DNA of 63,993 nucleotides from an uncultured virus (IMG/VR IMGVR_UViG_3300027770_000036) (IMGVR_UViG_3300027770_000036), one strand, 5' to 3'; counted from the stretch's first letter, positions 23,303 through 44,453 are shown. Program-made: numbers and translations. The notes: generated by a model not told the origin, from the letters alone.

Positions 23303-24820
23303 TTACCCTCTAGGAACATTAGGTATGGTACCTGTCATAGGTCTGGTCTGTGGTTTCCCTACCGTATTGGTACCTGGTGCAGTCTGTGGTTCTCCTACCG
23401 TGCGGTTTCCTGGTGTGGTCTCTGGTTCTCCTGCCATACTGGTGCCTGATGTAGGGTGCGATCTTGGGCGGTGGTTATCTGCGTAGGCGGATAAGGGAGT
23501 CTGCGGGCCTCCTGCTCTAGTAAGGCTTTTAACCTCACTGAGGCCTTTATATTTAGCCGCCTCCATAGCGGCAGTTAATCCCCTTGATGCTAGTGTGGTT
23601 CCCGTGGCTCCCTCGGCCCCAGCAACAAGAGATTTGCCCAGCCCAGTAGGATCTGTATAAGGTAAAGAAGCCTTACCTATACCTGTTAAGTATTTTGCCG
23701 TACCCTCTCCTTTTGGGATAAAGGATTTAGCTAAGGCAGTGGCATCCGAAAAACCACCACCTAAACCGCCGCCGCCAGCGACGCTGGTAAGGCCTCCAGC
23801 GGCATAGCCTGTCCCCATGCTGGCTAGTCCCACCATTGCAGCGTTGTCTGGGGCAATGCTATGGTTGTGTTGGGGTGCTAGGTTAGGGGGCGCGTCTTGG
23901 CCGTATTTAGGTCCACCTCTTCGATACTCCCAGTCAGGAGTCTGGGCTCTATAATCTTGCTTCTCCTTCTCTTGCGCCTCCGAGATCCGGTGTGCCTCGT
24001 ACTCTCGATTCTCTTGGTGCTGCTCAGGCGTCCAGCTGGCTCGCCTCATCGCCTCAATGGAACCTTGCGGTATAGGCGGCGTGGGCTGTTTCATAAAAGG
24101 AGCCGGAGTACCTTTAGGGGGACCCCCAATCAGAGCTCCTAGTGGTCCTCTAGCCGGTGCCGTAGACATCGGGTCACGCGCCCCCATACTAGGCCCGCTA
24201 TTTCCTGGAAAGGTGCCTGCAGCAGGGGGATTATTTATTGGGGCGAACCTAGCAAATCCCTGTGTGGGGTCGAGGGAGACAGGATTTGGTCCATTCAAAT
24301 CTACATGGCGGTCGCCTGCAGAAAAATTAGACGGGGTTGCATATGCAGCCCTCTTGCCCATCATAGCTCCAAAGGCTGCTGCCTTTTTAAGTGACCCAGA
24401 TCTAGATCTCATACCCATCAATGATCTGTTAACAGCTTCCATAGGATTCCCCTCGGGCCCCCAATCATCAATAGGCCCTGGGGACTTAAGCCTTAAGGTC
24501 TCAAGAATGCCTGATCTAGGCTTGAGGGGATATTGTAGGCTGTAGTAATTTGGTAGATTTTCTACGTCATCAAGATCTTTGTCATTGGGCGCAGCAGATA
24601 TACGCTTAATAGCTTCCTCAGGAGTGAACATATCTCGCATGTCCCTGTCTGCGTGAAAAAGCAACTGGGCTTTGCGCCTAGCCGCTTCAGCGGTGAATAA
24701 GCGAGTTAGGTCTATCATCTTTTGCTTATTCAAGCCCCAGGCTGGACCACCATCTGCCCATCTATCATATTCGCCATACTCATCATCGCCGCCGTAAGCT
24801 GCTTTTTCAAATCTGTTCAT
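23303..24820 (-). CDS. MNRxEKAA-family probable virion cargo protein
   Basis: MNRFEKAA start; internal LKKAAAFGAMMGKRAA; low-complexity C-terminus. Confidence 0.65.
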   Translation of the reverse strand: MNRFEKAAYGGDDEYGEYDRWADGGPAWGLNKQKMIDLTRLFTAEAARRKAQLLFHADRDMRDMFTPEEAIKRISAAPNDKDLDDVENLPNYYSLQYPLKPRSGILETLRLKSPGPIDDWGPEGNPMEAVNRSLMGMRSRSGSLKKAAAFGAMMGKRAAYATPSNFSAGDRHVDLNGPNPVSLDPTQGFARFAPINNPPAAGTFPGNSGPSMGARDPMSTAPARGPLGALIGGPPKGTPAPFMKQPTPPIPQGSIEAMRRASWTPEQHQENREYEAHRISEAQEKEKQDYRAQTPDWEYRRGGPKYGQDAPPNLAPQHNHSIAPDNAAMVGLASMGTGYAAGGLTSVAGGGGLGGGFSDATALAKSFIPKGEGTAKYLTGIGKASLPYTDPTGLGKSLVAGAEGATGTTLASRGLTAAMEAAKYKGLSEVKSLTRAGGPQTPLSAYADNHRPRSHPTSGTSMAGEPETTPGNRTVGEPQTAPGTNTVGKPQTRPMTGTIPNVPRG

Positions 24821-24904
24821 TTTAATGTCCTGTAAAAGTAATGATGCTGGAATTTACTGCATATCATGGCAGAAGTCAAACCTATACGAAGCTAAGAGTT
24901 AAAG

Positions 24905-27298
24905 CTAGGCTTCGGGCTGTATTGTCGGAGATCTATTAGTGTCGCTTCCAGCATACGGCGTATTAGCGATGTCAGTTCCGCCCCGCGGTATTGTTTTTGG
25001 TCCTATTGCAGAGTTCATTGCGCCCTTAGCCTTGTTCCAGGCATTACCTACAGCGGAGGATACATTACTTGCCTGGTGTCCTACTTCGTGTACCACTTTT
25101 GCCCCGAGCCATGCAGGAGCACTCTTAATACTTGTGGGAGTGGTGGCGTACGCTGCGGGCAGCAGCGACTCGGCACCTAAGTGGCCAGCTACGTGAGCCG
25201 CCTCATGAGCAGCAGGAGCGGCCCATCTAGCAAAGGCTGGAGCTATTTTAGGAATTACGTATCCTCCAATAGCTTTTGCGCCGGCTCCTAAGACCTTACC
25301 TATAGGGCCTGCCAAAGCTGTCGACGCTACAAACTGAGGTATTGCTCCTGCGGTCTCATCCGATACCCTTTGTTGTTCAGACCTATTAAACGCTACGCTA
25401 CCTGGTTTAAGGTTCTGCCTGTCAGTGTAGGCTTGCTCGGTATAGTGCTTCATATTAGCCATCTCTTGATTCTTAGCACTTAGCGGAGGCCCACTAGGTT
25501 TGAAGGGGCTATTTGCGTTAGGGTCAACCTTACCTGCAAGCTGATCTGAAGCTATTTGCTCATTAGATGGGCGGCTTTGCCTATCGTATAGCATCTTCTC
25601 CCCTGGGTTCATCTGCTCTACCTGCTGCCAGGTCATTTTTTTGTTTGCTAAGTCAGCCTGTCGGGCCCAGTAAGTCATCTCTTCATTAGTCTTATAGCGG
25701 GTAGAGCCTCCTTGAACAGGGGCTGGGTACTGCACGTTAGCAGTGCTGGGATTGTTCTTTTGAAAGTTGGCATATCCCTTAAGCAAGGAGTCTTGCAACC
25801 CTTGGTCAAACTTAGGGCGACCACCAGATAGATCCATACCCCCGCCATTACCGCCAAGGCCGCTTGGTGGAGTAGAGTTTAGTGATGGCCCCTTAGGAGC
25901 AGCAGCGGGCTTGCCACCAGGAGTACCCATTTGCTGGCCAGTGCCGGCTCGCTTTAAAAGCCTAGCAAGCTTACTTACGCCACCAATATCATCAGTCCAA
26001 TCATCTTCTATACCGCCGCCGTGCTTTAATGCAAATGCCCTAGCTTCGTCTTTGGTTATAGCATGACCTGCCAGGCCTAAAGCTGCTTGAATCTTCTTTG
26101 GCTTCTTTAAGTTGCTGCCCCCTGCTAGGTAGTCATTACTAAAGGTAACTCCTCTATCTTTAAATATGTCTTCCCACCCTTTTCTGCGAGCGTAGAACTT
26201 ATCTACAGGAGCGGACGCCCCTATTAGAGGAAGGTTGAGTCCAAGCTTCTGAGCTAGTATCATCTGGGCTGCGTATGCAGAGTCGCCTAGCTCCTCTTTG
26301 AAGTTAGGCCAATCCATATTCTTTACAGACTCACCTAGCTCACCTAACTCTCCGGTTAGGTATGACAGGGGATACTTTCTTCCGTTAAGTAGGTCTCTGC
26401 TAACATCTTTAGACCAATACACGCTTTGCTTTAAAAGACCAGCCAGCTTACTTACGGGTAGCTCTTCAAGTGTTGTGTGCTCGTACGGGTTATCTAGCAA
26501 ATTTAGCTGTTTAATAGCCGCACTCAGTCTGTATATAGCAGGCTCACCTTTTGGCTCTCTTCCAGCTTTCCACTTTGGTTGTGGTGTGCCAAATTCATAT
26601 GGCTCTTCTAAGTCATCATCGGTCCATGGCTTGCCCGTAGCTTCGTGAAATCTAGCCATAATTTTGGCAGTCTCTAGGTCAGGTGTTACGTAGCTGCCCT
26701 TATATAAGCTTTGTAGGTCTCCTTTAGGGGAGCCGTGGTAAAACACTCCTGCAAGCTTACTTACCTTATTATCTTCAGTAACTTTTTTCTTCTTACACCC
26801 TACTGGAATGTAGAACCCCAATTGTGGAGACGTCTCCAATCCGTAGCTTCTCCTAATATCTTCTAAGTCGTTACTCTTAATAGAGATAGCCCATAATTTA
26901 TCATAGTCACCTGTTGCAGGTAGCTCGACTATAGGGCCAAGAGTATAGTGGTAAGAATGACCTCGTTCAGTGATATGGCTAGTGCCGCCTAGCTTGTCTA
27001 CTTCTTCCTTAGTCATAACTTTAATAGCAGACTCAGTCCTATTGTTGCGTACTACGAACTCAGCCCCCGGCTCATCAAGGGCGTCAAAGACACCTTTGAT
27101 AAGAGAAGAGGGCACTGTCAGTTCTAAGTTGCCACTAGGGCCCGCTTGAAGCCTACCTGCTAGAGCGTGTACAGATGTGTGCTCTGCATTCTTGTTCATA
27201 AGACCATGAGCCTGCCCAAACGAGAACATCTCAGCGTTGCGAGCTTTGAGCCACTCAGCGCCTTTGATAAGTCCTAATGATATCGGTGGTATGGTCAT
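24905..27298 (-). CDS. Multidomain protein: degenerate 2H-phosphoesterase-like, ART-like, MazG-like and low-complexity domains joined by VSKLA linkers
   Basis: FYHGS..SYVT (ART-like); GELGELGE...KEELGD (MazG-like); three VSKLA linkers. Confidence 0.55.
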   Translation of the reverse strand: MTIPPISLGLIKGAEWLKARNAEMFSFGQAHGLMNKNAEHTSVHALAGRLQAGPSGNLELTVPSSLIKGVFDALDEPGAEFVVRNNRTESAIKVMTKEEVDKLGGTSHITERGHSYHYTLGPIVELPATGDYDKLWAISIKSNDLEDIRRSYGLETSPQLGFYIPVGCKKKKVTEDNKVSKLAGVFYHGSPKGDLQSLYKGSYVTPDLETAKIMARFHEATGKPWTDDDLEEPYEFGTPQPKWKAGREPKGEPAIYRLSAAIKQLNLLDNPYEHTTLEELPVSKLAGLLKQSVYWSKDVSRDLLNGRKYPLSYLTGELGELGESVKNMDWPNFKEELGDSAYAAQMILAQKLGLNLPLIGASAPVDKFYARRKGWEDIFKDRGVTFSNDYLAGGSNLKKPKKIQAALGLAGHAITKDEARAFALKHGGGIEDDWTDDIGGVSKLARLLKRAGTGQQMGTPGGKPAAAPKGPSLNSTPPSGLGGNGGGMDLSGGRPKFDQGLQDSLLKGYANFQKNNPSTANVQYPAPVQGGSTRYKTNEEMTYWARQADLANKKMTWQQVEQMNPGEKMLYDRQSRPSNEQIASDQLAGKVDPNANSPFKPSGPPLSAKNQEMANMKHYTEQAYTDRQNLKPGSVAFNRSEQQRVSDETAGAIPQFVASTALAGPIGKVLGAGAKAIGGYVIPKIAPAFARWAAPAAHEAAHVAGHLGAESLLPAAYATTPTSIKSAPAWLGAKVVHEVGHQASNVSSAVGNAWNKAKGAMNSAIGPKTIPRGGTDIANTPYAGSDTNRSPTIQPEA

Positions 27299-27930
27299 AA
27301 GTTAACCTTAAAAAGTTCATTTAAGTCTTTTGGATTCTTTGTATCATACTCAACTGTTCCAGGTATTCTACCATATCTGTTTACAAGTCTGTAGTTGCTG
27401 TCGTATAACTTCTGGCCAGTACTATACTTGCGTGCCTCTATTGCTTCGTCCCACGGTTTACCCTTGTCTATGTTTTTTCTTTTAACCCTCTCGAGACGCT
27501 GCCTTAGTAAATCCTGCAAAGGAGTAGTAACCAAGACCCTGTTAGGATACTTTGCAAGCTGACTTCTACCTAGCAAAGATAACTGAGTCCCCTCAACAAC
27601 TGCGCCGTCCTTAGCTGAATCAAGCATCTCCGTAGCCAGTCCCCTAGCTGCGTTTAGATACCTTCTTCGCTCTGGAGATCCTGCTATAGTATGACGGAGT
27701 TCTGGGTCACTATCCATCATAGGTTTCCATTTAGGGTGATCATCAATAGACAATATCGGAAGCTTTAACGTCTCGCCAAGGCTCTTAGCAACCGTAGACT
27801 TACCCGCACCGCTATGACCGCTAACAAGAAACACCCTACGTCCTGCATCATCTACAGGGTCTAAGCCTAGAGCTACTGCCCTCTTCCCCATCATAGCCCC
27901 AAAGGCTTCTGCTTTTTCTAGTCTGTTCAT
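27295..27930 (-). CDS. P-loop nucleotide kinase-like protein with MNRLEKAEAFGAMMGKRA leader
   Basis: GHSGAGKSTVA, SIDD, VVEG. Confidence 0.7.
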   Translation of the reverse strand: MNRLEKAEAFGAMMGKRAVALGLDPVDDAGRRVFLVSGHSGAGKSTVAKSLGETLKLPILSIDDHPKWKPMMDSDPELRHTIAGSPERRRYLNAARGLATEMLDSAKDGAVVEGTQLSLLGRSQLAKYPNRVLVTTPLQDLLRQRLERVKRKNIDKGKPWDEAIEARKYSTGQKLYDSNYRLVNRYGRIPGTVEYDTKNPKDLNELFKVNL

Positions 27931-29699
27931 TAAAATAACCTTCTAGGTGTCTTACTCTCTATAACAGGAGAGCTTGCAGGCGGAACAGGCTGCATGCCTC
28001 TAGGCACCGGTGGTGTGTTAATCTGACCCCCTGCGCCAGGTAAAGGTCTTTGGCTCTGCTGCCCTTCTTGTCGAGTAAACGTTGCACCCGGTTGTATGAC
28101 TCCGTCTTTCATGGTACCTCTAGAAGTACCATACGCTCCGTTACCTCCGGCGGCATCTCTAACCATCTGACCTTTACGCTGTAGCTCCATACGAGCGTTA
28201 TGAATCTGAATATCTCTAGCGCTTGGCTGAGGAGCTACAGGAGCTTCACCAGCAGCCATCTTCCCCATCATAGCCCCGAAGGCAGCTGCCTTAGCGATAG
28301 TCCCCTTTTTGCTAGGCTTCGCTGACGGAGCTAAGTCTAGATAAGGATAGTACTCATCAAACAGCTTCTGCCTGTTAGTCGGGTCATTATACTCAGGGAA
28401 TGTTGACTGCTCAAATAGCGAATGCACAACATCAGGTTCTGTATTCATTTTCCATGGTAGATTTTTATCCACCATATCTGTGTAGTTAGGTGGATAGTCT
28501 TTTATATCTTCAGGTTTTCTATATGGATTTTTTACTACACCGTAGTTCCTGTCCAAGTAATGGTTCAGGATATTATTAACGCCTTCTCTTGTATGGTCAT
28601 CGCGCAAGGCCATCTCTTTTTTCCAATCGTTTGCGTCCCACTCCTCTTCGTTATCACTGCGTAGGTACTCAGCGTCTCTAGCCTTATCGATCATGCCTTG
28701 GGTGCGAAATGGAAACCAGCTTGGCCCAAAGGCTGCTGCCTTTTTAAGGCCGGGCTTGGCACGGTAGACGGCGTTTTCAAAGATATCTTCGCCGCCAATA
28801 GGACTGTCTCCCTCTTGTTTGTACCGATCTGGATACCATCGGGGCAGCATATAAGAGGCAAGCATAGCCCTACCTTCTGGAGTTGCCAATGCTTGATTCG
28901 CTGGGGAGTCTCGATCTTCTCCGTACTCCTCGTTAAGCTTAATGGCTGAAAACATATGATCGTAGTCTTTTCTCGGGGAGGAGAACAGCCTAGTTAGAAG
29001 TCTAGGCGACATTGTTCTCTCAGCGTCTAGTCTCATAGAGGTGGCGCCGTCGTCAGGTCCAAACAGAGACTTAATACCAACAGGCTTATCTAGTTTCTTC
29101 CAGAACAGACCTGCGCTCTTACCCATCTTTATATCTTCTATTTTAATGCCTCCGCCCTTTAACTTCGGGTTTAAAATTTCAGGATGAGTTATCTGCTTCC
29201 AATCTTCGGGAAAAGGCATTCCATGGCTCTTCATGTGTCCTTGAAGTCCCTTATAGTAAGGTGTTCTAGTGTCTTCAAATACGTCTTCATTACCTAGTGG
29301 CGCGTCTGTACCATACGAATAACGGTCTGCTAACATTAAGGGCAGAAAATCAGACGCCCAGATTGCTCTACCGATAGGTGACTCCAGGCCGACACCTCCT
29401 TTGCCTGGGTCAGGATCTCTATCAACTACTGACTGCATTCCTGCTAGCATATTTTTATAGTCTTTACTTGGAGACGAGAACAGCCTAGTTAAAAGCCTAG
29501 GCTCCATTGTCCTGTATGCTCCTAATCTGGCGTGAACAGTTGGCCTATCAAAGTCTACAGGATCATGTGAGTCTGCTGGGTCGTCCTCATTACCCCATAT
29601 AGCCTTAATACCAACAGGCTTATCTAGTTTCTTCCAGAATAAGCCTGCAAGCTTACCCATAGCCGAATCAAAAGATGCTGCTTGTTCAAATCTGTTCAT
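27930..29699 (-). CDS. MNRxE-family protein with an internally duplicated domain
   Basis: AAGGAG SD before ATG 29699 (MNRFEQAASF); GLFWKKLDKPVGIK...PRLLTRLFSSP occurs twice; repeated KAAAFG linkers. Confidence 0.7.
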   Translation of the reverse strand: MNRFEQAASFDSAMGKLAGLFWKKLDKPVGIKAIWGNEDDPADSHDPVDFDRPTVHARLGAYRTMEPRLLTRLFSSPSKDYKNMLAGMQSVVDRDPDPGKGGVGLESPIGRAIWASDFLPLMLADRYSYGTDAPLGNEDVFEDTRTPYYKGLQGHMKSHGMPFPEDWKQITHPEILNPKLKGGGIKIEDIKMGKSAGLFWKKLDKPVGIKSLFGPDDGATSMRLDAERTMSPRLLTRLFSSPRKDYDHMFSAIKLNEEYGEDRDSPANQALATPEGRAMLASYMLPRWYPDRYKQEGDSPIGGEDIFENAVYRAKPGLKKAAAFGPSWFPFRTQGMIDKARDAEYLRSDNEEEWDANDWKKEMALRDDHTREGVNNILNHYLDRNYGVVKNPYRKPEDIKDYPPNYTDMVDKNLPWKMNTEPDVVHSLFEQSTFPEYNDPTNRQKLFDEYYPYLDLAPSAKPSKKGTIAKAAAFGAMMGKMAAGEAPVAPQPSARDIQIHNARMELQRKGQMVRDAAGGNGAYGTSRGTMKDGVIQPGATFTRQEGQQSQRPLPGAGGQINTPPVPRGMQPVPPASSPVIESKTPRRLF

Positions 29700-29721
29700 A
29701 TTAAGCTCCTTATGCTGCATC

Positions 29722-31263
29722 TTATCTGAACTTCTTACCTGCGAGGTATGGAAGTACTTGGGCCGCATTACTGTTCTGCTGATTACTAATCGCTATGCGC
29801 TGAGCAGGTACTCCATTAGGATCCTTAGGAGGATTAGCCCTATTCATGTTAGCCATCTCGTTATAGTGCTTTTCGTTTTGGATAGAATCTACCTTGTCAG
29901 AGACAGGTTTCGGTCTCCATGAGTCTGCAGGAGTAGTGTCAATACGGGGGCTCTTCATGCTCCCGTCCCTGTTGTAGCCAGCCTTGGGGTTATTATCACG
30001 GGAAATACCTGTGGAGCCATGCTGGGTAAACCCTATTGGCTCCCTAAGGCCAAATAGCTGACTATTTGCCTCTCCGTAACTATTGCGCATTCGTGCGTCT
30101 TCGGAAGGGCTGTTAGCCTCATGATTAATCCCAGGGACGCCATATAGCTGGCTACCTCCTTGGGCTCCAGGGTCTGCAGCCATCTTGCCCATCATAGCTC
30201 TGAAGGATGCTGACTTGGGTGAAAAGCTTCCAATCATGCCTCCGCCTAGGACTCCTAGTAAACCACCAGCTAAACCGTGTAATACAGACCCTCCTAGTAC
30301 TCCTCTACGCTTCATCATTACATTACCTTTATCGTCAACGTAATAATGCTTTTCATTGCCTTTATCATCTACATAGCTTCTTCTATGCTCCTCTGGTCCA
30401 GTTGTCTCAAGAGCGTCTAGGCCACTAGATTCATAGTTTAAATGACCAGGACGAATAGCGCCGTAAAGAGCTCCGCCCAGGGCTCCTAGACCGCCCCCTA
30501 CAAGCGCCCCTCTGCCGGCTCCCTCTAGATTATTAATATTGCCAGCCATTATCATAACTCTTGCACTCTTTCCCATACTATTACCCATCATGGCTTCACT
30601 AGAAGTCCTTAGTAGATTTAATTTTTTTTTATGTGGGTCTTGTGCACTAGTAGGAAGCCAGTTAATAATCTTGTCGTAATCCTCTAAATCTTTTTCTTGG
30701 ATATCATATTTAGGGTCGTTGCTGGGAGTTCTTAAGGCCTCCTCTCTGTTTAATTGTTTTGCGTGGTCCATGATGGCGTCTTCAAAGTCCTTCATGTGTT
30801 CTTCACCCCACGTCAAAGAGAAACGTGCGTTACTGCCTGGCTCATAGCGTTCCTTGTCTGAATACAAATAGGATCCCTTCCCGAGATCTACTACTCCACC
30901 AGCCATCTTACCCATCATTGCTCCGAACGCTGCTGCTTTATCTAAATTGTTCATAGCCTGCTCCTTATTAGTGCTTCCTACTACGGCTGGAATAGGTAAG
31001 ACGCTAGCCATAGACGGATATCCCGCTGTCTCTCTAAACCTTTTGAGTCTAGTCTCTAGTAGCTCCTTTTGTTGCTGGCTCTTTAACCAGGCGCTAGCTA
31101 TTAAAGACAGATCTGTCATTTCTTTATCTATATTCTGCTGAGACTTTATAGCCTCCTGGGCGTCTGCTAAGTGCTTTGGTAGCGCTGCTAAAAGGTGGCC
31201 TCTCTCGCTCCACTTTGGAGCCAAGGCCGTCAGGTCATTAGAAGTCTTTTCAAACCTGTTCAT
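29722..31263 (-). CDS. MNRxEK-family protein with glycine zippers
   Basis: MNRFEKTS start; internal MNNLDKAAAFGAMMGKMA and KSASFRAMMGKMAA; GGGLGALGGALYG helices. Confidence 0.7.
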   Translation of the reverse strand: MNRFEKTSNDLTALAPKWSERGHLLAALPKHLADAQEAIKSQQNIDKEMTDLSLIASAWLKSQQQKELLETRLKRFRETAGYPSMASVLPIPAVVGSTNKEQAMNNLDKAAAFGAMMGKMAGGVVDLGKGSYLYSDKERYEPGSNARFSLTWGEEHMKDFEDAIMDHAKQLNREEALRTPSNDPKYDIQEKDLEDYDKIINWLPTSAQDPHKKKLNLLRTSSEAMMGNSMGKSARVMIMAGNINNLEGAGRGALVGGGLGALGGALYGAIRPGHLNYESSGLDALETTGPEEHRRSYVDDKGNEKHYYVDDKGNVMMKRRGVLGGSVLHGLAGGLLGVLGGGMIGSFSPKSASFRAMMGKMAADPGAQGGSQLYGVPGINHEANSPSEDARMRNSYGEANSQLFGLREPIGFTQHGSTGISRDNNPKAGYNRDGSMKSPRIDTTPADSWRPKPVSDKVDSIQNEKHYNEMANMNRANPPKDPNGVPAQRIAISNQQNSNAAQVLPYLAGKKFR

Positions 31264-31273
31264 GGTTTGTTCC

Positions 31274-31696
31274 TTACGCCGCGTCTTGGTTAGAAACTAT
31301 ACTTAAGCCGCCGTTGTCTAGTCTACGCCTTAAAGACCTAAGCTCATCCTCTAATTGAATGACCTTTGTTCTTAGCTCATCGTTCTCTTTACGGCAGTTA
31401 CGCCTGTCGTTGTAGAGTTCTTCTATATCCTTCTTCAGGTTCTTCATCTCTTCCCTTAAGAAGGTTTGCATATCTTTAGACGACTCCACGATGAGTCTGT
31501 ATTCACTGAATAAAGAGTCATTCTCATGGTGGTCTAGCCGCTGCTGCTTAAGGATTATCTCTTTGGTCTTTATATCAGAGGCTTTTTCTGACTTAAGCTT
31601 GTTTACATAAATAACAGAAATAGCTCCCGCAAGGGAGCCCACTGCGCCAAATAGAATACTTATCGCAGATAGTATGACGTCTAGCTTTAAGTCCAT
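31274..31696 (-). CDS. N-terminal TM plus coiled-coil protein (possible lysis or membrane accessory)
   Basis: Hydrophobic residues about 7-31, then a heptad-rich helix. Confidence 0.6.
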   Translation of the reverse strand: MDLKLDVILSAISILFGAVGSLAGAISVIYVNKLKSEKASDIKTKEIILKQQRLDHHENDSLFSEYRLIVESSKDMQTFLREEMKNLKKDIEELYNDRRNCRKENDELRTKVIQLEDELRSLRRRLDNGGLSIVSNQDAA

Positions 31697-31712
31697 GGTT
31701 AGTTACCTTAGG

Positions 31713-32573
31713 TTATTGAAGGTCTGAGGTAGGAGTGGTGGGCATAGTAAACGGAGGTCGAGCTAAATGCTTATACTGATAACGGTCACCAAAAGGCAAC
31801 TCAGGGCGAGCCTGTGAAGGAGGTATAGGCCAACCTTTAGATTCTAGGCCAGGATGCAAGTTTATTTTTCCTTTTGGATCTCCCGTACCTAAAAACTGTT
31901 GCACATGGCCTTTAAATCCTACGGGGTCTGGAACTCTATACCCGAGGGGATCAGAAAAATTAATGTTATCCTCCAGTTGCTTTGACCTAGAAGCCTGTGC
32001 TTGCTGCTCATCATACGGGCCTGGCTTTGGAGGTTGCCAAGGCTTAGGGGTTGGGGCGTAGTTTAACGGAGTCCTAAGTGCTCCTGAGTCTGAGGGAGCA
32101 CTATGTCGTTCCCTAGGCGGGCCGTAATCAGCAGGGACAGGAAACTGCTCCATTCCAGGAGTATACAGAATTGAGTTAGAACCAGAGTTAGGTAGCTTAG
32201 GCTTATAAACTTGTTCAGGTGCTTTACGCTGAGCTGGTGCTGGCACAGGAGGCACAGGCCCTTCAGCCATCTTAAATAATAAGCTACGAAGACTAGCAAT
32301 CTTATTAGGCATAGGGTCTGAAGACATTCTTCTAATTACCTCTCCCACTCCTGCTCCGGTAGCCATACCTAAGCCGGAGCCCGCAATGGCTCTCAGTACT
32401 CTGTCCTTTTTAGTGCCTTTACGTAAGTCATAGCCGATTGTTCCTAACCCACCTATAAGGGCACCATATAATCCGCCAATAAGGTGTCTATCATCTAAGC
32501 TATCTGAGGAAGGCCACAACGCAGCCTTACCCATCATAGCCCCAAAGGCCGCTGCTTTCTCAAGCCTGTTCAT
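31713..32573 (-). CDS. MNRLEKAAAFGAMMGKAA-family protein
   Basis: Canonical leader, glycine zipper, Pro-rich tail. Confidence 0.7.
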   Translation of the reverse strand: MNRLEKAAAFGAMMGKAALWPSSDSLDDRHLIGGLYGALIGGLGTIGYDLRKGTKKDRVLRAIAGSGLGMATGAGVGEVIRRMSSDPMPNKIASLRSLLFKMAEGPVPPVPAPAQRKAPEQVYKPKLPNSGSNSILYTPGMEQFPVPADYGPPRERHSAPSDSGALRTPLNYAPTPKPWQPPKPGPYDEQQAQASRSKQLEDNINFSDPLGYRVPDPVGFKGHVQQFLGTGDPKGKINLHPGLESKGWPIPPSQARPELPFGDRYQYKHLARPPFTMPTTPTSDLQ

Positions 32574-32594
32574 TGTTGTACCCTTGGTTAAAGA

Positions 32595-33197
32595 TTAGAA
32601 ATCGTATGAAAGAGTTGGCGCTAGCGTAGGCCTCATATAAGGATTATTCATGCCGCTGTGCCTAGCGTACTCCCTCATTGCATTGTCCTGGTTATACACA
32701 GGGTCTGATAAAAGGTCTCTCTTAGTTATCTCTCCAGGTCCAAGCCTAGCCATCATATCTTTCAAACCCTCGTTAGTGGATTTTCTTTGGAAGTAAGTGG
32801 TAAGAGCCCCTAAGCCTCCTAGAGCAGTACCTCCAGCCAAAGCGCCTGCTAGTGATCCAACTAACGGCTCTTTCATAGAGCGACCAAGATTAAAGCCCAT
32901 TGCACCACCACCAAGAGCGCCAATCGCCCCAAGACCAAGACCGCCCACTATAGCTCCTTTAAGAGGGCTACTTAACATCTCGTGTACTGGAGTTCCATAG
33001 GATTCAAAAATCCTGGGCAACCACCTACTCTCTCCTTTTTCTACTTTTTTAAGCTCATCTGGAGTAAGCCCTTCCCTTCTATTAGCCACGGGAAGATGGG
33101 TCTGAAGGGACAAAGCGTTGTCTATAGCTTTGCTAGAGTTGGCGGACTTATGTATCAAGTACATTAACTTAGATGCTGCTTTCTCACGTCTGTTCAT
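32595..33197 (-). CDS. MNRxEKAA-family glycine-zipper protein
   Basis: MNRREKAAS...HKSA; two GxxxG-rich helices. Confidence 0.7.
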   Translation of the reverse strand: MNRREKAASKLMYLIHKSANSSKAIDNALSLQTHLPVANRREGLTPDELKKVEKGESRWLPRIFESYGTPVHEMLSSPLKGAIVGGLGLGAIGALGGGAMGFNLGRSMKEPLVGSLAGALAGGTALGGLGALTTYFQRKSTNEGLKDMMARLGPGEITKRDLLSDPVYNQDNAMREYARHSGMNNPYMRPTLAPTLSYDF

Positions 33198-33212
33198 TGC
33201 TATCTCCTTTGT

Positions 33213-33338
33213 TTATTTCTGGTAGAAGCTTTTTAAGTCGGACATTATACCGTTAACCTGTTGAGTACTCATAGAGGGCTTGGCTGGAGCGGGATTGTTT
33301 GAGCCAGCTGAGAGTATGATGTCTAGCTTAAAGTCCAT
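33213..33338 (-). CDS. 41-aa chimeric mini-ORF
   Basis: MDFKLDIILSA start matches MDLKLDVILSA of 31274..31696; AGGAG SD upstream. Confidence 0.5.
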   Translation of the reverse strand: MDFKLDIILSAGSNNPAPAKPSMSTQQVNGIMSDLKSFYQK

Positions 33339-33341
33339 GGC

Positions 33342-33842
33342 TTATTCTCCTGGTCTAACTATTTGGGCATTACGTACTGTTCTAGGTCCAGGGTGGGCGG
33401 TAGGAGAGTTATGATAAAAGTTGAGTGGATCTTGACCGGCTGGATCTATCTGAGCATTGCTGAAGGATCTGCCAGGGCCGGCAGGAGGTTGAGATAGCAT
33501 AGGGTTCTTAGGTGCTGTTTTTTGTGCAAAAGAGCTTGGTGAAGGTTTCTGCTGCTGTTTACCGCCAAACGCACTCTGCATGCCACTAATATCTTTATTG
33601 CTGAGTTGAGGTCTTGTCTGGGGGTTAGCTTGGAACGTAGGTTCATACCTATGTACGGCCCTTTCAGCCATTAGCGCTTTTTCATCAACCGGCTCTTTCA
33701 AGCCATTAAAGCCATTAATGATCTCATCAGCATCCTGCCTCTGGGCTGGTGTTAGGGTTCTGCGGCCTGTACCTACACCCTGTTCAGCTGCCGCCTTACC
33801 CATCATGCGTCCGAAGTATGCTGCTTTCTCAAGTCTGTTCAT
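33342..33842 (-). CDS. MNRLEKAAYFGRMMGKAA-family protein
   Basis: Canonical leader plus a disordered body; its SD/start (aggagatagcaatgaacag) is shared with 33197. Confidence 0.7.
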   Translation of the reverse strand: MNRLEKAAYFGRMMGKAAAEQGVGTGRRTLTPAQRQDADEIINGFNGLKEPVDEKALMAERAVHRYEPTFQANPQTRPQLSNKDISGMQSAFGGKQQQKPSPSSFAQKTAPKNPMLSQPPAGPGRSFSNAQIDPAGQDPLNFYHNSPTAHPGPRTVRNAQIVRPGE

Positions 33843-33927
33843 TGCTATCTCCTGGATTAAAAACTTAGTCTATGTGTATAAAATATAAACTAATCTACCT
33901 TCGTAGTACATAGTTAGTTATCTCTTA

Positions 33928-38475: not shown

Positions 38476-38595
38476 CTACTTGTAGTAGCGGCTAGGTGAG
38501 GTATTGTGGCTCAAAGAGCACACAATACCTATTAGTAGCATAAGGACGCATGGCCATGCGTCCAACAAATAAACAGGGGAAACTACAATCTCCAT
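38476..38595 (-). CDS. 39-aa hydrophobic peptide
   Basis: GAGGAG SD; MEIVVSPVYLLDAWPCVLMLLIGIVCSLSHNTSPSRYYK; its end overlaps the terminator. Confidence 0.5.
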   Translation of the reverse strand: MEIVVSPVYLLDAWPCVLMLLIGIVCSLSHNTSPSRYYK

Positions 38596-38855
38596 AACAA
38601 TCTCCTCGTTAAGACTGTTCATTAAAGTAAATTTGAAAAGAGGTAAGAATGCGCCTTAAAGGTGGAAGGTCTATTCCCTTACATAGGGGAATAGAAGCAC
38701 GTATGATTGGCATACCTGTGCGAATTCCCTATCCTGTAGTCCCGCCGAACTACCCTTAGTTTGCTCCATAGCTCTGCGCATCTTACCCCTACCGGTACCA
38801 CTCTATTATGACGCACTTATGGATTGGATTAAGGAATGGGTGATAGCTAAAAAAA

Positions 38856-39385
38856 GACACATGAGACCGGGGTTTAACCCGGTAACCTCATGTATCCCTC
38901 TTTGTGGAAGTTTCATCCACACCCGTACCCGGCCGGTAGCCGCCCGTCTGTTGAGTCAGCGGGAACCTGCAGTTTAACGTCATGCATGGACGCCAGCTTT
39001 AATTGAAGCAGCTTAACGTCCTGCTGATGACGGCCCTTCCCTCCAGGTGCGCAGCAGTATCGCTGATACTGCTTAGAATCTCCCGTGGGTATAGGGAGAA
39101 GCGTGGAAGTCTCATCCACACCCCATTTTAGCCACAGTGGGTTACTGCTTGTTGTTCCGTCACCGGGTAGCAGCATCTACTGATGCCGCCCCACAACCAC
39201 AAGTCAACTAGGTGACTTTGTATGCCCCCTGCTAGTGGAGTACATACACCTTGTGGAAGGGCCAGAGTTTTCGTTATCTCTGGAACGCTCCTGGGGCGGT
39301 ATTACCAACCTGATAGAAGAATCAGTTGGGCTTACGAGTACTTTTAACGCCACTGTCTCGAGGGGGCGGATACCTATCGGTATCA
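38856..39385 (-). ncRNA. Candidate modular ncRNA A (pseudoknot and T-loop modules)
   Basis: Own promoter and terminator, no SD-led ORF, structural modules shared with 43372-43956. Confidence 0.65.
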
Positions 39386-40588: not shown

Positions 40589-41344
40589 TTATTTCTTCTT
40601 TGTAGGAGTCGTTGGCTCCGGCTCCGGCTCGGGTTCTGGTTTTAAGTTACCGAACTTACCCTTCAGCAGTTCAATCAAATGACCCCTTTCAGAGTCCAGT
40701 GACCCAGGGAAAGAACGGCCACCATCCAAGTTCCTAGGACTGCACAGTGCTGCCATCGTCGTATACAACGACTCTAACCCGTAGAGCTTCAGGTTCTTGG
40801 CTGCTATTAATAGCCTGCGGGTAGAGAGCTGGAATTGGAACCTAAGGTCATTACTATTTATCCTCCTCCTCACATTCGTAGCTATATCGACTAGCTTACG
40901 AGCGTAGGCTGGGCTGACGTCGGTTTTAACGACTATCAGAGCTGCCTCCTGCTCCTCTGATAGATAATAAAGCTCGATAACATGGTGAAAGATATCTTTC
41001 ACCCTTACGGGAAGGACCACAAATCCGTCGCTGCTTGTATCAACAACGAATACCACCACGGCCTTCTTTTTTCTAAAGGACTTGAGGGCTTCAATGACGT
41101 CCTCGTCCAATAGGTCGGCACGAATGGCTACCGCCATCCTATCCTTTACCAGCCCACCCCTTATTAGTTCCACAGAGTTGGAGGTCATGACCCTCTCTAC
41201 GCTCCGGCCAGTCCTTTCGGACCAAGCATCTAACATGGCATTCTTTCCGCATCCTGTAGGGCCTGAGACGAGTATAAGTCTCGTCTCTTCGGTGTTGGTA
41301 ACCTTTAGAAGGCATTCCAACTGAGGAGTCATAATATATTCCAT
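40589..41344 (-). CDS. MoxR/CbbQ-like AAA+ ATPase, partly degenerate
   Basis: GPTGCGKN Walker A, YLSEEQEAALI, LSTRRLL sensor-2 region; Walker B is unclear. Confidence 0.65.
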   Translation of the reverse strand: MEYIMTPQLECLLKVTNTEETRLILVSGPTGCGKNAMLDAWSERTGRSVERVMTSNSVELIRGGLVKDRMAVAIRADLLDEDVIEALKSFRKKKAVVVFVVDTSSDGFVVLPVRVKDIFHHVIELYYLSEEQEAALIVVKTDVSPAYARKLVDIATNVRRRINSNDLRFQFQLSTRRLLIAAKNLKLYGLESLYTTMAALCSPRNLDGGRSFPGSLDSERGHLIELLKGKFGNLKPEPEPEPEPTTPTKKK

Positions 41345-43196: not shown

Positions 43197-43371
43197 AGAT
43201 TCTCCTTGGTGTTAAAGAAAGTCTTTTGCAACCGATATCACTATATTATGACACGCTTACGATCTGAATTAAGCTGCGACAAAAACACGTCGCTGGCGAC
43301 GAGAGTGTGACGTAATGTGACCGTCACATTATGTTACTTGACAATGAGCTGGTTACTGATAGCTAAAAAAA

Positions 43372-43956
43372 GAGCAGCTTAACGTCCTGCTCAGGACGGC
43401 ACCTTCCCTCAAGGTGCGAGGAATATCTCCCGTGGGTATAGGGAGATATATGGAAGTTTCATCCATACCCCATTTATGGTAGGCGGGTTACCTTAAAAGA
43501 AGAAGGGGTTTCCACCCTATTCCCCGGCTCTCACCGGGTGTCCCACATATTTTAAGAGTGTGGCGTTCTCTAAGCAGTTTATAGTCCTACTCAGGACGCG
43601 CACCTCACTAAGGTGCCGCTAGTGTTACGTCCGTAGTTACTGGACGTTTGTGGAACTTTCATCCACACCCACTTACCTACGGTTGGTTACCGCCCACTGT
43701 TCTTAGGCCGTGGGGCCTTCAGTCCGTAAAAATGTAGACGCAGGACCTAAACCTCACCACAAGGCATTACACTGTAAAGTGCTGGTCCCGCTTAGGTGTG
43801 TGGCTTAATATCCTACAGGTGTGCGCCACATAACTACTTGCGTAGAATTATCAGCGCGCACACCAGGTTAACCTAGATATTAAGTCGAATTCCTCCAAGC
43901 GGCCGTGTCAGATCGGCAGGGCTGAAGGCCTTCGTCCTTAATATCTAGGCGGTATC
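43372..43956 (-). ncRNA. Candidate modular ncRNA B (~585 nt)
   Basis: No ORF of 60 aa or more; own promoter and terminator; 13-bp stem 43872-43884/43937-43949; two tandem pseudoknot/T-loop modules. Confidence 0.75.
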
Positions 43957-44044
43957 ACTCTATTATGACACGATTATGCTCTGAATTAAGGGGGTGCATA
44001 ATAGCTAAAAAAAGAGCAGTTTAACGTCCTGCTCAGGACGGTGG

Positions 44045-44341
44045 TTAGGGCTTTAACTCGAATTCCTTCAAGTCCCCTAATACCACACACTGCAGCCGGT
44101 ACCAGGTATTCCTGGCATCCTCTGAGTGTGAGAACTTAAGTCCACCTTGGCAGATGGAAAGAAAGTCTTTCCATTTGCTTATAGTGATCTTCTTCCCCAT
44201 GGTGTGGCCACCGTAGGGCGTCCAATACTCCGGCATATGCCGGAGTATTTTCTGCTCTAGCTCCCGGGCGTCGGCAGCCTCCTTGTCCATCAACTGGACA
44301 AGGTCTTTTACAAAAACCAAATTTTGTTCTAAAGTGGTCAT
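44045..44341 (-). CDS. Hypothetical protein (cassette gene)
   Basis: GAAAGGA SD before ATG 44341 (MTTLEQ). Confidence 0.7.
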   Translation of the reverse strand: MTTLEQNLVFVKDLVQLMDKEAADARELEQKILRHMPEYWTPYGGHTMGKKITISKWKDFLSICQGGLKFSHSEDARNTWYRLQCVVLGDLKEFELKP

Positions 44342-44453
44342 GGTATTTTCCTTTCTTAAAAGGGGGCATACCTGCCCTACAGGATTAGGCGTCATCTAAT
44401 AGATGACTGATAACCTATCCTTCCATACTATTATGACGCACTTATGGATTGGA

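What the first reader, a model, noticed from the sequence alone, without database searches (positions are those of the whole stretch)
43372..43956. ncRNA B: ~585-nt ORF-free transcript with tandem pseudoknot/T-loop modules
Seen: a full cassette with no ORF in the track. The 5' part has long stems (43872-43884/43937-43949 and 43818-43826/43856-43864). Two tandem modules follow, each with a putative pseudoknot, a GGA-UGAAA(G/C)-UUCC hairpin, two further hairpins and the GUCCUGAG pseudoknot. Across the four copies in A and B the first pseudoknot covaries (loop ACCC/ACCA/ACCG with downstream GGG/UGG/CGG). A further UGAGAG loop lies at about 43530. Established: UGARAG T-loops mediate tertiary contacts in FMN and TPP riboswitches, and phages encode large ncRNAs such as ROOL and GOLLD. 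Inference: a new large structured phage RNA acting as a decoy, scaffold or processed precursor.
Basis: partly seen in the sequence, partly recalled or inferred. Interest (0 to 1): 0.85.

Follow-up and report, generated by a model that had tools for sequence, protein, structure and literature searches.

The report
Shuffled-module knotted phage RNA
A lake phage makes a roughly 590-base RNA with no protein gene, built from small folded knots and loops that related phages carry in other orders and numbers; it matches no catalogued RNA family and most likely works as a nuclease-protected decoy, though its target is unknown.

Summary
B (43956 to 43365, minus strand) is a promoter-to-terminator cassette in a phage early-gene array. 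Its longest ORF is 34 codons, and it has no meaningful Rfam match. It is held by 24 RNA runs; in the 4 laid, contigs span most of it and stop inside its ends.

It is not one ornate fold like ROOL or GOLLD. It is a string of autonomous modules that eight other ORF-free stretches carry in different order and number:
- a pseudoknot plus T-loop arm, whose third pseudoknot pair occurs in four Watson-Crick forms (14 of 14 paired);
- a two-hairpin kissing unit;
- a small knot resembling the plant-virus coremin xrRNA. This knot is widespread in phages and bacteria (119 of 128 pair outside the search pattern, shuffle mean 67). It fails coremin's membership tests and also ends five mRNAs of this phage, so it is more likely a 3' cap.

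Best reading (0.4): a stabilised, multivalent decoy for a host protein. No partner is shown and the host is unknown. This scan noted a relative on another genome earlier (e1-6096936), which gave the coremin lead.

The parts
43962..43989 (-). Early-type promoter repeated in front of the array's cassettes (TTAATT, 16 nt, CATAAT); predicted start about 43956
   Evidence: Repeat family D2, 13 copies in the window; same pattern in 9 of 10 related virus records. Start site inferred; RNA contig 5' ends at 43941, 43934, 43941 and 43915
43365..43956 (-). ncRNA B, 592 nt, the whole predicted transcript
   Evidence: Longest sense ORF 34 codons; no SD-ATG; MFE z -7.85; held by 24 RNA runs
43872..43949 (-). 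5' domain: 13-bp stem with two internal arms
   Evidence: 13 of 13 pairs; only one homologue (L003), with 1 double-sided and 2 single-sided pair-keeping changes among 35 pairs
43818..43864 (-). Second domain: 9-bp stem carrying a GCAA-capped hairpin (43845-43834)
   Evidence: 9 of 9 pairs; the 17-nt hairpin core recurs in L037; replaced by another hairpin in L003
43720..43816 (-). Third, predicted-only domain and linker; 43790-43720 is absent from L003
   Evidence: MFE; alignment gap against L003; no covariation data
43694..43718 (-). Candidate compact H-type pseudoknot (PK-0)
   Evidence: Read from the sequence; its 12-nt core is also in L001, L003 and L007; no covariation, so predicted only
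43649..43692 (-). Module 1: pseudoknot (43692-43669) plus T-loop arm (43667-43649)
   Evidence: 14 copies: 94.5% of cells paired, 19 double-sided changes vs 5.9 shuffled, 0 of 500 shuffles as high
43600..43647 (-). Unit 1 hairpins H2 (9-nt loop) and H3, likely a loop-loop kiss
   Evidence: H2 stem 6-7 of 7 pairs in 11 of 11 copies; best loop-loop register 17 of 18 Watson-Crick cells over 6 distinct loop combinations, next best 13
43571..43598 (-). Internal coremin-like pseudoknot
   Evidence: Same first stem and spacer as the coremin query in PMC10520033; covariation in outside copies
43504..43563 (-). Middle block of three hairpins, two with T-loop-like loops (UGAGA-G at 43533-43528; UGGAA-AC in 43518-43504)
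   Evidence: Sequence and MFE; otherwise seen only in L003, so no covariation; chance-level Rfam match to the tymoviral tRNA-like T-arm (12.3 bits, cut-off 40)
43449..43493 (-). Module 2: pseudoknot (43493-43469) plus T-loop arm (43467-43449)
43399..43447 (-). Unit 2 hairpins H2 and H3, likely a loop-loop kiss (CCC with GGG)
43372..43398 (-). Terminal coremin-like pseudoknot; its second stem doubles as the terminator hairpin
   Evidence: The same element ends five ORF cassettes (44039, 42695, 41508, 40583, 39955)
43365..43371 (-). U7 tract of the intrinsic terminator, followed by the array's conserved AGCTAT tail
   Evidence: Sequence; repeat family D3
38845..39384 (-). Paralogue A: the same modules in another order, different 5' domain and terminator
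   Evidence: RNA contigs in 4 of 4 runs

Best explanation
B is an early, stand-alone non-coding RNA of an uncultured large lake phage, assembled from independently folding modules that recombination shuffles between cassettes and strains. Steps: (1) a phage early promoter drives a ~590-nt transcript that ends at an intrinsic terminator [cassette anatomy shown; presence in RNA libraries shown; exact ends inferred]. (2) Each module folds locally: pseudoknot plus T-loop arm, H2-H3 kissing pair, coremin-like knot [supported by covariation]. (3) The coremin-like knots cap the 3' end of the transcript and of each internal unit against exonucleases, as they do for this phage's mRNAs, so full-length and shortened forms persist [inferred]. 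(4) The repeated bodies, whose loop letters are fixed while their stems drift, are binding sites that titrate a host RNA-binding protein, most plausibly a nuclease or defence factor, during host takeover [inferred; no partner identified].
For: Real RNA: 24 RNA runs of 24 studies hold it, 13 with at least half the sampled words. In the 4 laid, contigs run 43941-43415, 43934-43416, 43941-43468 and 43915-43389 (two pieces); none of the listed pieces crosses the promoter or terminator. Modules are autonomous: order and copy number differ in all nine ORF-free stretches compared. L036 has three H2-H3-knot units in a row, two with no T-loop arm in front; A, L001 and L007 end on a T-loop arm with no H2-H3; L021 has only two T-loop modules, inside a tRNA array. 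Structure is selected. T-loop modules occur in 6 of 38 closed cassettes examined; five have ORFs of at most 46 codons, one (A) an 87-codon frame without SD, and five lack any SD-ATG. Accessory and strain-variable: present in 4 related records, absent from a 92%-complete relative. 3'-cap role: the knot ends five mRNAs directly before U7; in 236 outside copies a sense ORF ends within 60 nt upstream in 140 vs 64 in the antisense control, peaking at 6 nt; contigs of paralogue A stop at its first internal knot (39037, 39025) in 2 of 4 runs (weak hint). Precedent for repeated-pseudoknot phage decoys: pseudo-ToxI of phage PhiTE (PMC3475682, passages).
Against: No binding partner, host or phenotype was identified. 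No DNA run was laid as a control, so DNA carry-over in the RNA libraries is not excluded, and contigs give no strand, exact ends or level. Outside copies of the knot also precede sense ORFs (130 vs 34 control), which fits a 5' role equally well. B's contigs pass through its internal knot in all 4 runs, so no shortened form of B was seen. The T-loop letters were fixed by my search patterns, so their invariance is partly by construction, and 5 of 13 pairs never vary. The kissing covariation rests on three loop types. The 5' domain and middle block have one homologue only. ORF cassettes of the array fold as strongly (z to -12). The sample is small and related, so cell counts overstate independent events.
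Confidence: 0.4

Rival explanations
1. The pseudoknot plus T-loop module is a tRNA half-mimic: a coaxial stack of about 13 pairs ending in a T-loop. It is cut by RNase P or binds tRNA-handling or tRNA-sensing proteins, so B is a processed precursor or a tRNA decoy.
For: The loop UG(A/C)AA followed by CU has the same form as the T-arm in Rfam's tymoviral tRNA-like consensus shown. Two copies sit inside a tRNA array in L021.
Against: ARAGORN finds no tRNA in the window. The Rfam match is at chance level (12.3 bits, E 7.2) and falls on the middle block, not on the module. No D-arm, anticodon arm or conserved CCA. The pseudoknot lies 5' of the T-arm, the reverse of the order in that Rfam consensus. 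Contigs span the junctions.
Confidence: 0.17
2. B is a bacterial-virus counterpart of flaviviral sfRNA. The modules are road-blocks to a 5'-to-3' exoribonuclease (RNase J) and yield nested stable fragments that tie up the decay machinery.
For: First stem and spacer match coremin, a proven Xrn1 block (PMC10520033). A flaviviral xrRNA halts RNase J1 in vitro (PMC5760640, passages). Outside copies precede ORFs (130 vs 34) and tRNAs (12 of 128).
Against: The downstream hairpin that coremin needs is not enriched (76 vs 82 shuffled, of 236). Six copies in the window sit at transcript ends with nothing downstream to protect. 0 of 5 bacterial genomes carrying the knot had an RNase J over the family cut-off (completeness not given, so absence is not shown). 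The loop does not fit YGAD/YGNNAD.
Confidence: 0.12
3. The modules are aptamers, and the RNA is a sponge for a small molecule such as a nucleotide immune signal or a cofactor.
For: Pseudoknots, T-loops and kissing loops are the parts list of riboswitch aptamers (own knowledge). Repeated copies suit titration.
Against: No riboswitch family above chance: the best was a 22-nt piece of c-di-GMP-I-GGC at 12 bits, cut-off 59. No conserved multi-helix junction that could form a pocket was seen.
Confidence: 0.09
4. B self-assembles into an RNA-only oligomer or cage through intermolecular kissing loops and T-loop contacts, like ROOL and GOLLD.
For: Similar length to ROOL (average 581 nt, PMC5737381 passages). 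ROOL and GOLLD cages use kissing loops and lie near tRNA islands (bioRxiv 2024.12.08.627333 passages). H2-H3 could pair in trans.
Against: No ROOL or GOLLD match. Free shuffling of module order and number is hard to reconcile with a fixed cage geometry. No multistem scaffold.
Confidence: 0.08
5. The knots mimic type III antitoxin RNAs (ToxI, CptI, TenpI) and neutralise a host ToxN-type ribonuclease.
For: H-type pseudoknots of similar size, repeated, in a strain-variable early region; precedent in PMC3475682.
Against: The ToxI model gave no hit over cut-off in 5 related records, best E 0.99, none on the RNA cassettes. Antitoxins are near-identical tandem repeats (PMC5086642 passages), whereas B is heterogeneous. 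The knot is generic at gene boundaries in many phyla.
Confidence: 0.06
6. B is a by-product: mRNA end-protection elements and leader fragments piled up by recombination in a cassette that lost its gene, with no role in trans.
For: The knot is a cis element of mRNAs here. Recombination between cassettes is evident. A near-complete relative lacks the RNA.
Against: The T-loop module was in none of the other 32 of 38 cassettes. Compensatory changes occur within the non-coding copies. The module recurs in unrelated settings (L021, L035).
Confidence: 0.08

Closest known systems
Coremin motif (xrRNA-C) and its Watson-Crick variant xrRNA-WCC of plant, fungal and insect RNA viruses (PMC6546385, PMC10520033, PMC10321173)
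   Same: The same 4-bp first stem and A-rich spacer followed by a pyrimidine run; loop-to-spacer pseudoknot topology; tandem copies occur in both.
   Different: An 8-nt loop that makes a 5-6 bp Watson-Crick second stem. The loop fits neither YGAD/YGNNAD nor the G5 rule. No downstream hairpin. It occurs in DNA phages and bacterial genomes, often at 3' ends. It is one module of B, not the whole RNA.
ROOL and GOLLD large phage/prophage RNAs (PMC5737381; bioRxiv 2024.12.08.627333)
   Same: About 500-800 nt, ORF-free, phage-borne, with pseudoknots and kissing loops; one relative lies in a tRNA array.
   Different: No Rfam match; no conserved multistem scaffold; modules are shuffled in order and number; sits in an early promoter-cassette array.
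Pseudo-ToxI of phage PhiTE and type III antitoxins (PMC3475682, PMC5086642)
   Same: Phage non-coding RNA with repeated small H-type pseudoknots whose copy number varies by recombination; decoy logic.
   Different: No ToxI model match; heterogeneous modules instead of near-identical repeats; no cognate toxin known.
STAXI motif, RF01728 (PMC2864571)
   Same: Tandem pseudoknots in mobile-element DNA.
   Different: No match at E<=10 in 5 related records; different sequence; no UUCG repeats.
Tymo/Furovirus tRNA-like 3' element (RF00233) and upstream pseudoknot domain (RF01104)
   Same: T-arm loop of the same form; small upstream-type pseudoknots (weak matches).
   Different: Scores far below cut-off (12.3 vs 40; 19.1 vs 39); pseudoknot on the other side of the T-arm; no 3' CCA end.

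Membership tests
Coremin / xrRNA-C | 4-bp first hairpin followed by the conserved A-rich spacer | tested here: met
   Window copies against the query sequence printed in PMC10520033
Coremin / xrRNA-C | Loop consensus YGAD or YGNNAD | tested here: not met
   B's loops are 8 nt with U at the second position. The paper reports one resistant 8-nt loop, but it begins YG
Coremin / xrRNA-C | Second hairpin directly after the spacer | tested here: not met
   Terminal copy is followed by U7; internal copy by a hairpin that starts about 8 nt later; not enriched in outside copies (76 vs 82 of 236)
xrRNA-WCC | Watson-Crick loop-spacer stem | tested here: met
   119 of 128 and 87 of 128 Watson-Crick at two positions outside the pattern, shuffle means 66.9 and 64.7; 117 of 123 and 84 of 123 in bacterial genomes, means 61.6 and 72.7
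xrRNA-WCC | G at first loop position and a required last-loop G-C pair (PMC10321173) | tested here: not met
   First loop base is C in B; last loop base is G in B but in only 3 of 128 outside copies
Coremin / xrRNA | Stalls a 5'-3' exoribonuclease | not testable with these tools
   Needs an in vitro assay
ROOL / GOLLD | Match to the family covariance model | tested here: not met
   No hit in the window or in 25 loci
ROOL / GOLLD | Conserved multistem architecture with fixed domain order | tested here: not met
   Module order differs in all nine stretches
ROOL / GOLLD | RNA-only oligomeric cage | not testable with these tools
   Needs cryo-EM or mass photometry
Type III antitoxin / pseudo-ToxI | Match to ToxI model; tandem near-identical repeats | tested here: not met
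   0 of 5 records over cut-off; heterogeneous modules. CptI and TenpI models were not searched separately
STAXI | Match to RF01728 | tested here: not met
   0 of 5 records at E<=10
FMN, TPP, cobalamin and c-di-GMP riboswitches | Match to aptamer model; position upstream of a regulated gene | tested here: not met
   No hit near cut-off; the cassette ends at its own terminator with no ORF
Self-cleaving ribozymes (hammerhead, HDV-like, twister, pistol, hatchet) | Catalytic core matching the family model | tested here: not met
   No hit at E<=10; contigs span 43415-43941. Short or divergent members could escape the models
tRNA / tymoviral tRNA-like structure | D-, anticodon and T-arms, acceptor end with CCA | tested here: not met
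   ARAGORN 0 genes; RF00233 12.3 bits vs 40

The most novel reading that the evidence does not exclude
Phages keep a combinatorial RNA toolkit: small tertiary-structure modules, each a binding site for a different host factor and each capped by a coremin-type knot, are recombined into multivalent non-coding anti-defence RNAs in the early-gene array, much as small anti-defence proteins are swapped. On this reading the coremin knot of eukaryotic RNA viruses has a widespread, unrecognised prokaryotic counterpart that guards RNA ends.
Probability: 0.27. Interest if true: 0.9.

Novelty: new variant of a known kind. Interest (0 to 1): 0.7.

Why it matters
Only a handful of large phage RNAs are catalogued, and the ones compared here have one fixed fold. 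B is found in RNA libraries, its structure is supported by covariation, and it is built from exchangeable parts, which suggests a way for phages to evolve RNA decoys by shuffling. Its modules are 27-50 nt and can each be synthesised and assayed. It makes the question of whether bacteria and phages use xrRNA-type end protection directly testable.

Tried and rejected
Rfam: none at gathering score in the window; only chance-level hits at E<=10; among 25 loci only tRNA-derived hits in L021 and sub-cut-off matches. STAXI, recalled as a lead, not matched. ToxI not matched.

Cultured phages: blastn of B and of the T-loop module gave only short chance matches. Of 10 matches to the terminal knot, 2 were opened: an E. 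coli phage hit lies antisense inside a gene (chance), and a mycobacteriophage hit is a real intergenic copy.

Pattern scans, with the chance hits dropped. T-loop pattern in metagenomes: 27 loci, of which 7 carry the module (L021, L022, L023, L029, L035, L036, L037). L022 and L023 read as the window's own phage over the stretches shown, and L029 is the same contig as L007. L026 passes the structure filter but reads as coding and was set aside; 19 are chance. In viral contigs, 1 of 4, 4 of 5, 3 of 5 and 45 of 48 hits were chance (99/102); no new lineage was found.

A linker-to-H3 pseudoknot looked good in B (5 and 7 bp) but falls to 2-4 bp in 8 of 11 copies, so the H2-H3 kiss is preferred. A CsrA/RsmA sponge was rejected because the GGA lies in a stem whose outer pairs covary. 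The 'stop codon within 12 nt' count had no control and was replaced. The reversed-sequence control is unfair because the loci were selected by the T-loop pattern, and that scan required the pseudoknot pair, so it is not used as covariation evidence. The regex was faulty.

Expression: no contig covered 44423-46500 in the 4 runs, and B and A contigs were deeper than most ORF-cassette contigs in 3 of 4 runs. The tool warns that neither holes nor depth rank genes, so this is not counted as evidence. The two runs with a share under 0.2 and the 18 other unlaid runs were not examined.

Host not identified: no genome is held; the portal has only distant matches, 27-30% identity, in Vibrio and Salmonella phages; AAA homologues are unnamed.

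Literature: 10 searches found no description of this RNA or of a coremin-like knot in phages or bacteria. The supplement of PMC5737381 could not be read, and files 1, 2 and 4 of PMC10690425 were not searched; either could list a module. One file of PMC2864571 was cut when stored.

Full report
Setting. The window is part of a large uncultured phage; related records reach 190 kb at 91-92% estimated completeness. It has a portal-like gene with 27-30% identity to portals of Vibrio and Salmonella phages, a B12-type ribonucleotide reductase and glycosyltransferases. No genome or host is held. Between about 37,600 and 44,460 lies an array of 13 short cassettes on the minus strand, each with the same promoter (TTAATT, 16 nt, CATAAT) and a U-tract terminator. 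Most hold one small ORF with no Pfam family; by its layout I read this as an early host-takeover region (inference). B is the second cassette: promoter 43989-43962, predicted start about 43956, U7 at 43371-43365.

Observation check. The longest sense ORF is 34 codons, 36 if TAG or TGA is read as sense, and no SD-ATG pair is present. The RNA folds at z -7.85 against 100 shuffles. This alone is not diagnostic: three ORF cassettes of the array gave z of -12.0, -4.4 and -3.5. Rfam gives nothing at gathering score and only chance-level hits at E<=10.

Is it transcribed? 24 RNA runs from 24 studies, mostly lake water, hold the stretch, 13 with at least half the sampled words. I laid 4 of them. B is covered by single contigs 43941-43415, 43934-43416 and 43941-43468, and by two overlapping pieces 43915-43389. 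None of the listed pieces crosses its promoter or terminator, and two studies stop at the same 5' base. These are contigs, without strand or exact ends, and no DNA run was laid, so this is good but not final evidence. No joints were reported, and continuity through the internal junctions argues against complete self-cleavage.

Anatomy. Relatives show that B is a string of modules. Nine ORF-free stretches were compared: B, A, L001, L002, L003, L007, L036, L037 and L021. After its 5' part, B reads PK-0, T-loop module, H2, H3, knot, middle block, T-loop module, H2, H3, knot. A reads T-loop, H2, H3, knot, knot, T-loop. L007 reads knot, T-loop, H2, H3, knot, knot, PK-0, T-loop. L036 ends with three H2-H3-knot units in a row. 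L021 has two T-loop modules inside a tRNA array, and L035 is a short terminated RNA in an unrelated setting with one T-loop module followed by a knot-like hairpin. L003 is B with another second domain and without 43790-43720. T-loop modules were in 6 of 38 closed cassettes examined, all without a credible ORF. They are present in four related virus records and absent from a 92%-complete one; a more distant relative has an ORF-free cassette with a variant pseudoknot (L324).

Covariation. For the pseudoknot plus T-loop module, 14 copies give 94.5% paired cells and 19 double-sided changes against 5.9 shuffled; 0 of 500 shuffles reach either value, and slid registers pair only 37-45%. The third pseudoknot pair, which my patterns did not fix, occurs as C-G 7, A-U 4, G-C 2 and U-A 1. 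The measure 'further pair types' did not exceed the shuffles (333 of 500), 5 of 13 pairs never vary, and the T-loop letters were fixed by the search. For H2-H3, the H2 stem keeps 6-7 of 7 pairs in 11 of 11 copies while its letters change. One loop-loop register gives 17 of 18 Watson-Crick cells over 6 loop combinations against 13 for the next best; the competing linker pairing collapses in 8 of 11 copies. This rests on three loop types. The 5' stem has one homologue, with one double-sided and two single-sided pair-keeping changes. PK-0 and the middle block have no covariation data.

The knot. The GUCCUGAG element is not peculiar to B. It ends five mRNAs of the window directly before U7. Positions outside the pattern covary with the loop: 119 of 128 Watson-Crick against a shuffle mean of 66.9, and 117 of 123 against 61.6. 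The next pair gives 87 of 128 against 64.7 in viruses but only 84 of 123 against 72.7 (maximum 86) in genomes. The first stem and spacer equal those of the coremin query printed in PMC10520033 (parts 1-2 of 6 read). The loop, however, fits neither YGAD/YGNNAD nor the G5 rule of the Watson-Crick variant (PMC10321173, parts 1 and 3 of 6 read). The downstream hairpin that coremin needs (PMC6546385, passages) is not enriched (76 vs 82 of 236). So it is coremin-like, not a member. In 236 outside copies a sense ORF ends within 60 nt upstream in 140 (control 64, peak at 6 nt) and starts within 90 nt downstream in 130 (control 34). None of 5 carrier genomes tested had RNase J over cut-off (completeness unknown). 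With the terminal position in this phage, and contigs of A stopping at its first internal knot in 2 of 4 runs, a 3'-end cap fits best. A 5'-to-3' block remains possible, since a flaviviral xrRNA halts RNase J1 (PMC5760640, passages).

How it most likely works. An early promoter makes the RNA; the knots slow exonucleolytic decay; and the repeated bodies act as additive binding sites that titrate a host protein. Shown: cassette anatomy, lack of ORF, presence in RNA libraries, module folds, shuffling and patchy distribution. Inferred: exact ends, protection by the knot and any partner. Variable number and order of autonomous units is what sponges and decoys look like (own knowledge; pseudo-ToxI as precedent, PMC3475682 passages). 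I put the whole mechanism at 0.4, and the claim that B is a real structured non-coding RNA at about 0.9. Rivals: tRNA half-mimic or RNase P substrate 0.17 (T-loop of the same form as the tymoviral T-arm consensus; L021 context), nested xrRNA array 0.12, ligand sponge 0.09, RNA cage 0.08, by-product 0.08, type III antitoxin mimic 0.06.

Comparison with what is known. It is not ROOL or GOLLD: no model match and no fixed scaffold (PMC5737381 and bioRxiv 2024.12.08.627333, passages). It is not STAXI (PMC2864571, passages and two supplement searches). It is not ToxI (PMC5086642, passages). No riboswitch, ribozyme or tRNA matches. Ten literature searches found no description of this RNA; the 14 papers holding the word coremin concern eukaryotic viruses or are unrelated, judged from the listing. 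The supplement of PMC5737381 and three files of PMC10690425 (listing and supplement search only) could not be searched and might list a module. This scan has noted a relative of this RNA and the knot on other genomes; those notes are leads, not support.

Verdict. A real, apparently undescribed, modular phage RNA. The kind (large phage non-coding RNA, probable decoy) is known, but the shuffled-module design and the prokaryotic coremin-like knot are new as far as the searches reach. Function is unproven. Interest 0.7.

Noticed in passing
window 44039, 42695, 41508, 40583, 39955 (minus); L046-L176; L192-L315: The coremin-like knot ends five mRNAs here and is widespread at gene boundaries in phages and in bacterial chromosomes of many phyla. 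It sits at a sharp 6-nt distance after stop codons and just upstream of tRNA genes in 12 of 128 viral copies. It deserves study as an element of its own.
   Followed up: partly
window 38845-39384 (minus): Paralogue A: same modules in another order. RNA contigs stop at its first internal knot in 2 of 4 runs. It contains an 87-codon frame without SD.
   Followed up: partly
window 44005-44415 (minus): A protein-coding early cassette folds at z -12, as strongly as the non-coding RNAs; early mRNAs of this phage may be selected for heavy structure.
   Followed up: no
L021 reverse strand 795-1590: About 800 nt of ORF-poor, structured sequence between tRNA genes with two pseudoknot plus T-loop modules and a short tandem repeat; no Rfam match other than the tRNAs and hits lying on them.
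   Followed up: partly
L035 reverse strand 1120-1345: A small terminated RNA in an unrelated AT-rich contig with the T-loop module followed by a knot-like hairpin.
   Followed up: partly
L324 reverse strand 1168-1602: ORF-free cassette of about 430 nt in a more distant relative, with a variant of the pseudoknot and a different following hairpin.
   Followed up: partly
window 43834-43850 (minus): GCAA-capped hairpin shared with L037 (17 of 17). By recall only, it resembles the repeat handle of Cas12a guide RNAs; no Rfam CRISPR model matched.
   Followed up: no
window 38540-38830 (minus): A further cassette of about 330 nt with only a 48-codon ORF and several hairpins, covered by an RNA contig with an adaptor end at 38788 in 2 runs; possibly another non-coding RNA.
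   Followed up: no
window 24348-33861: At least eight copies of a 45-nt repeat near the starts of minus-strand ORFs (family D7), suggesting a shared N-terminal peptide on many proteins.
   Followed up: no
window 37975, 39426, 40531 and related loci: A perfect 14-bp palindrome (GTGGAGACGTCTCCAC-type) sits between terminator and promoter of several cassettes; possibly an operator or recombination site.
   Followed up: no
window 24905-27298 (minus); 40589-41344 (minus): A 797-aa ORF with a weak 2H phosphoesterase (Swiss Army Knife) match and a CbbQ/NirQ-type AAA ATPase in the early array, both near or below Pfam cut-offs in part.
   Followed up: no
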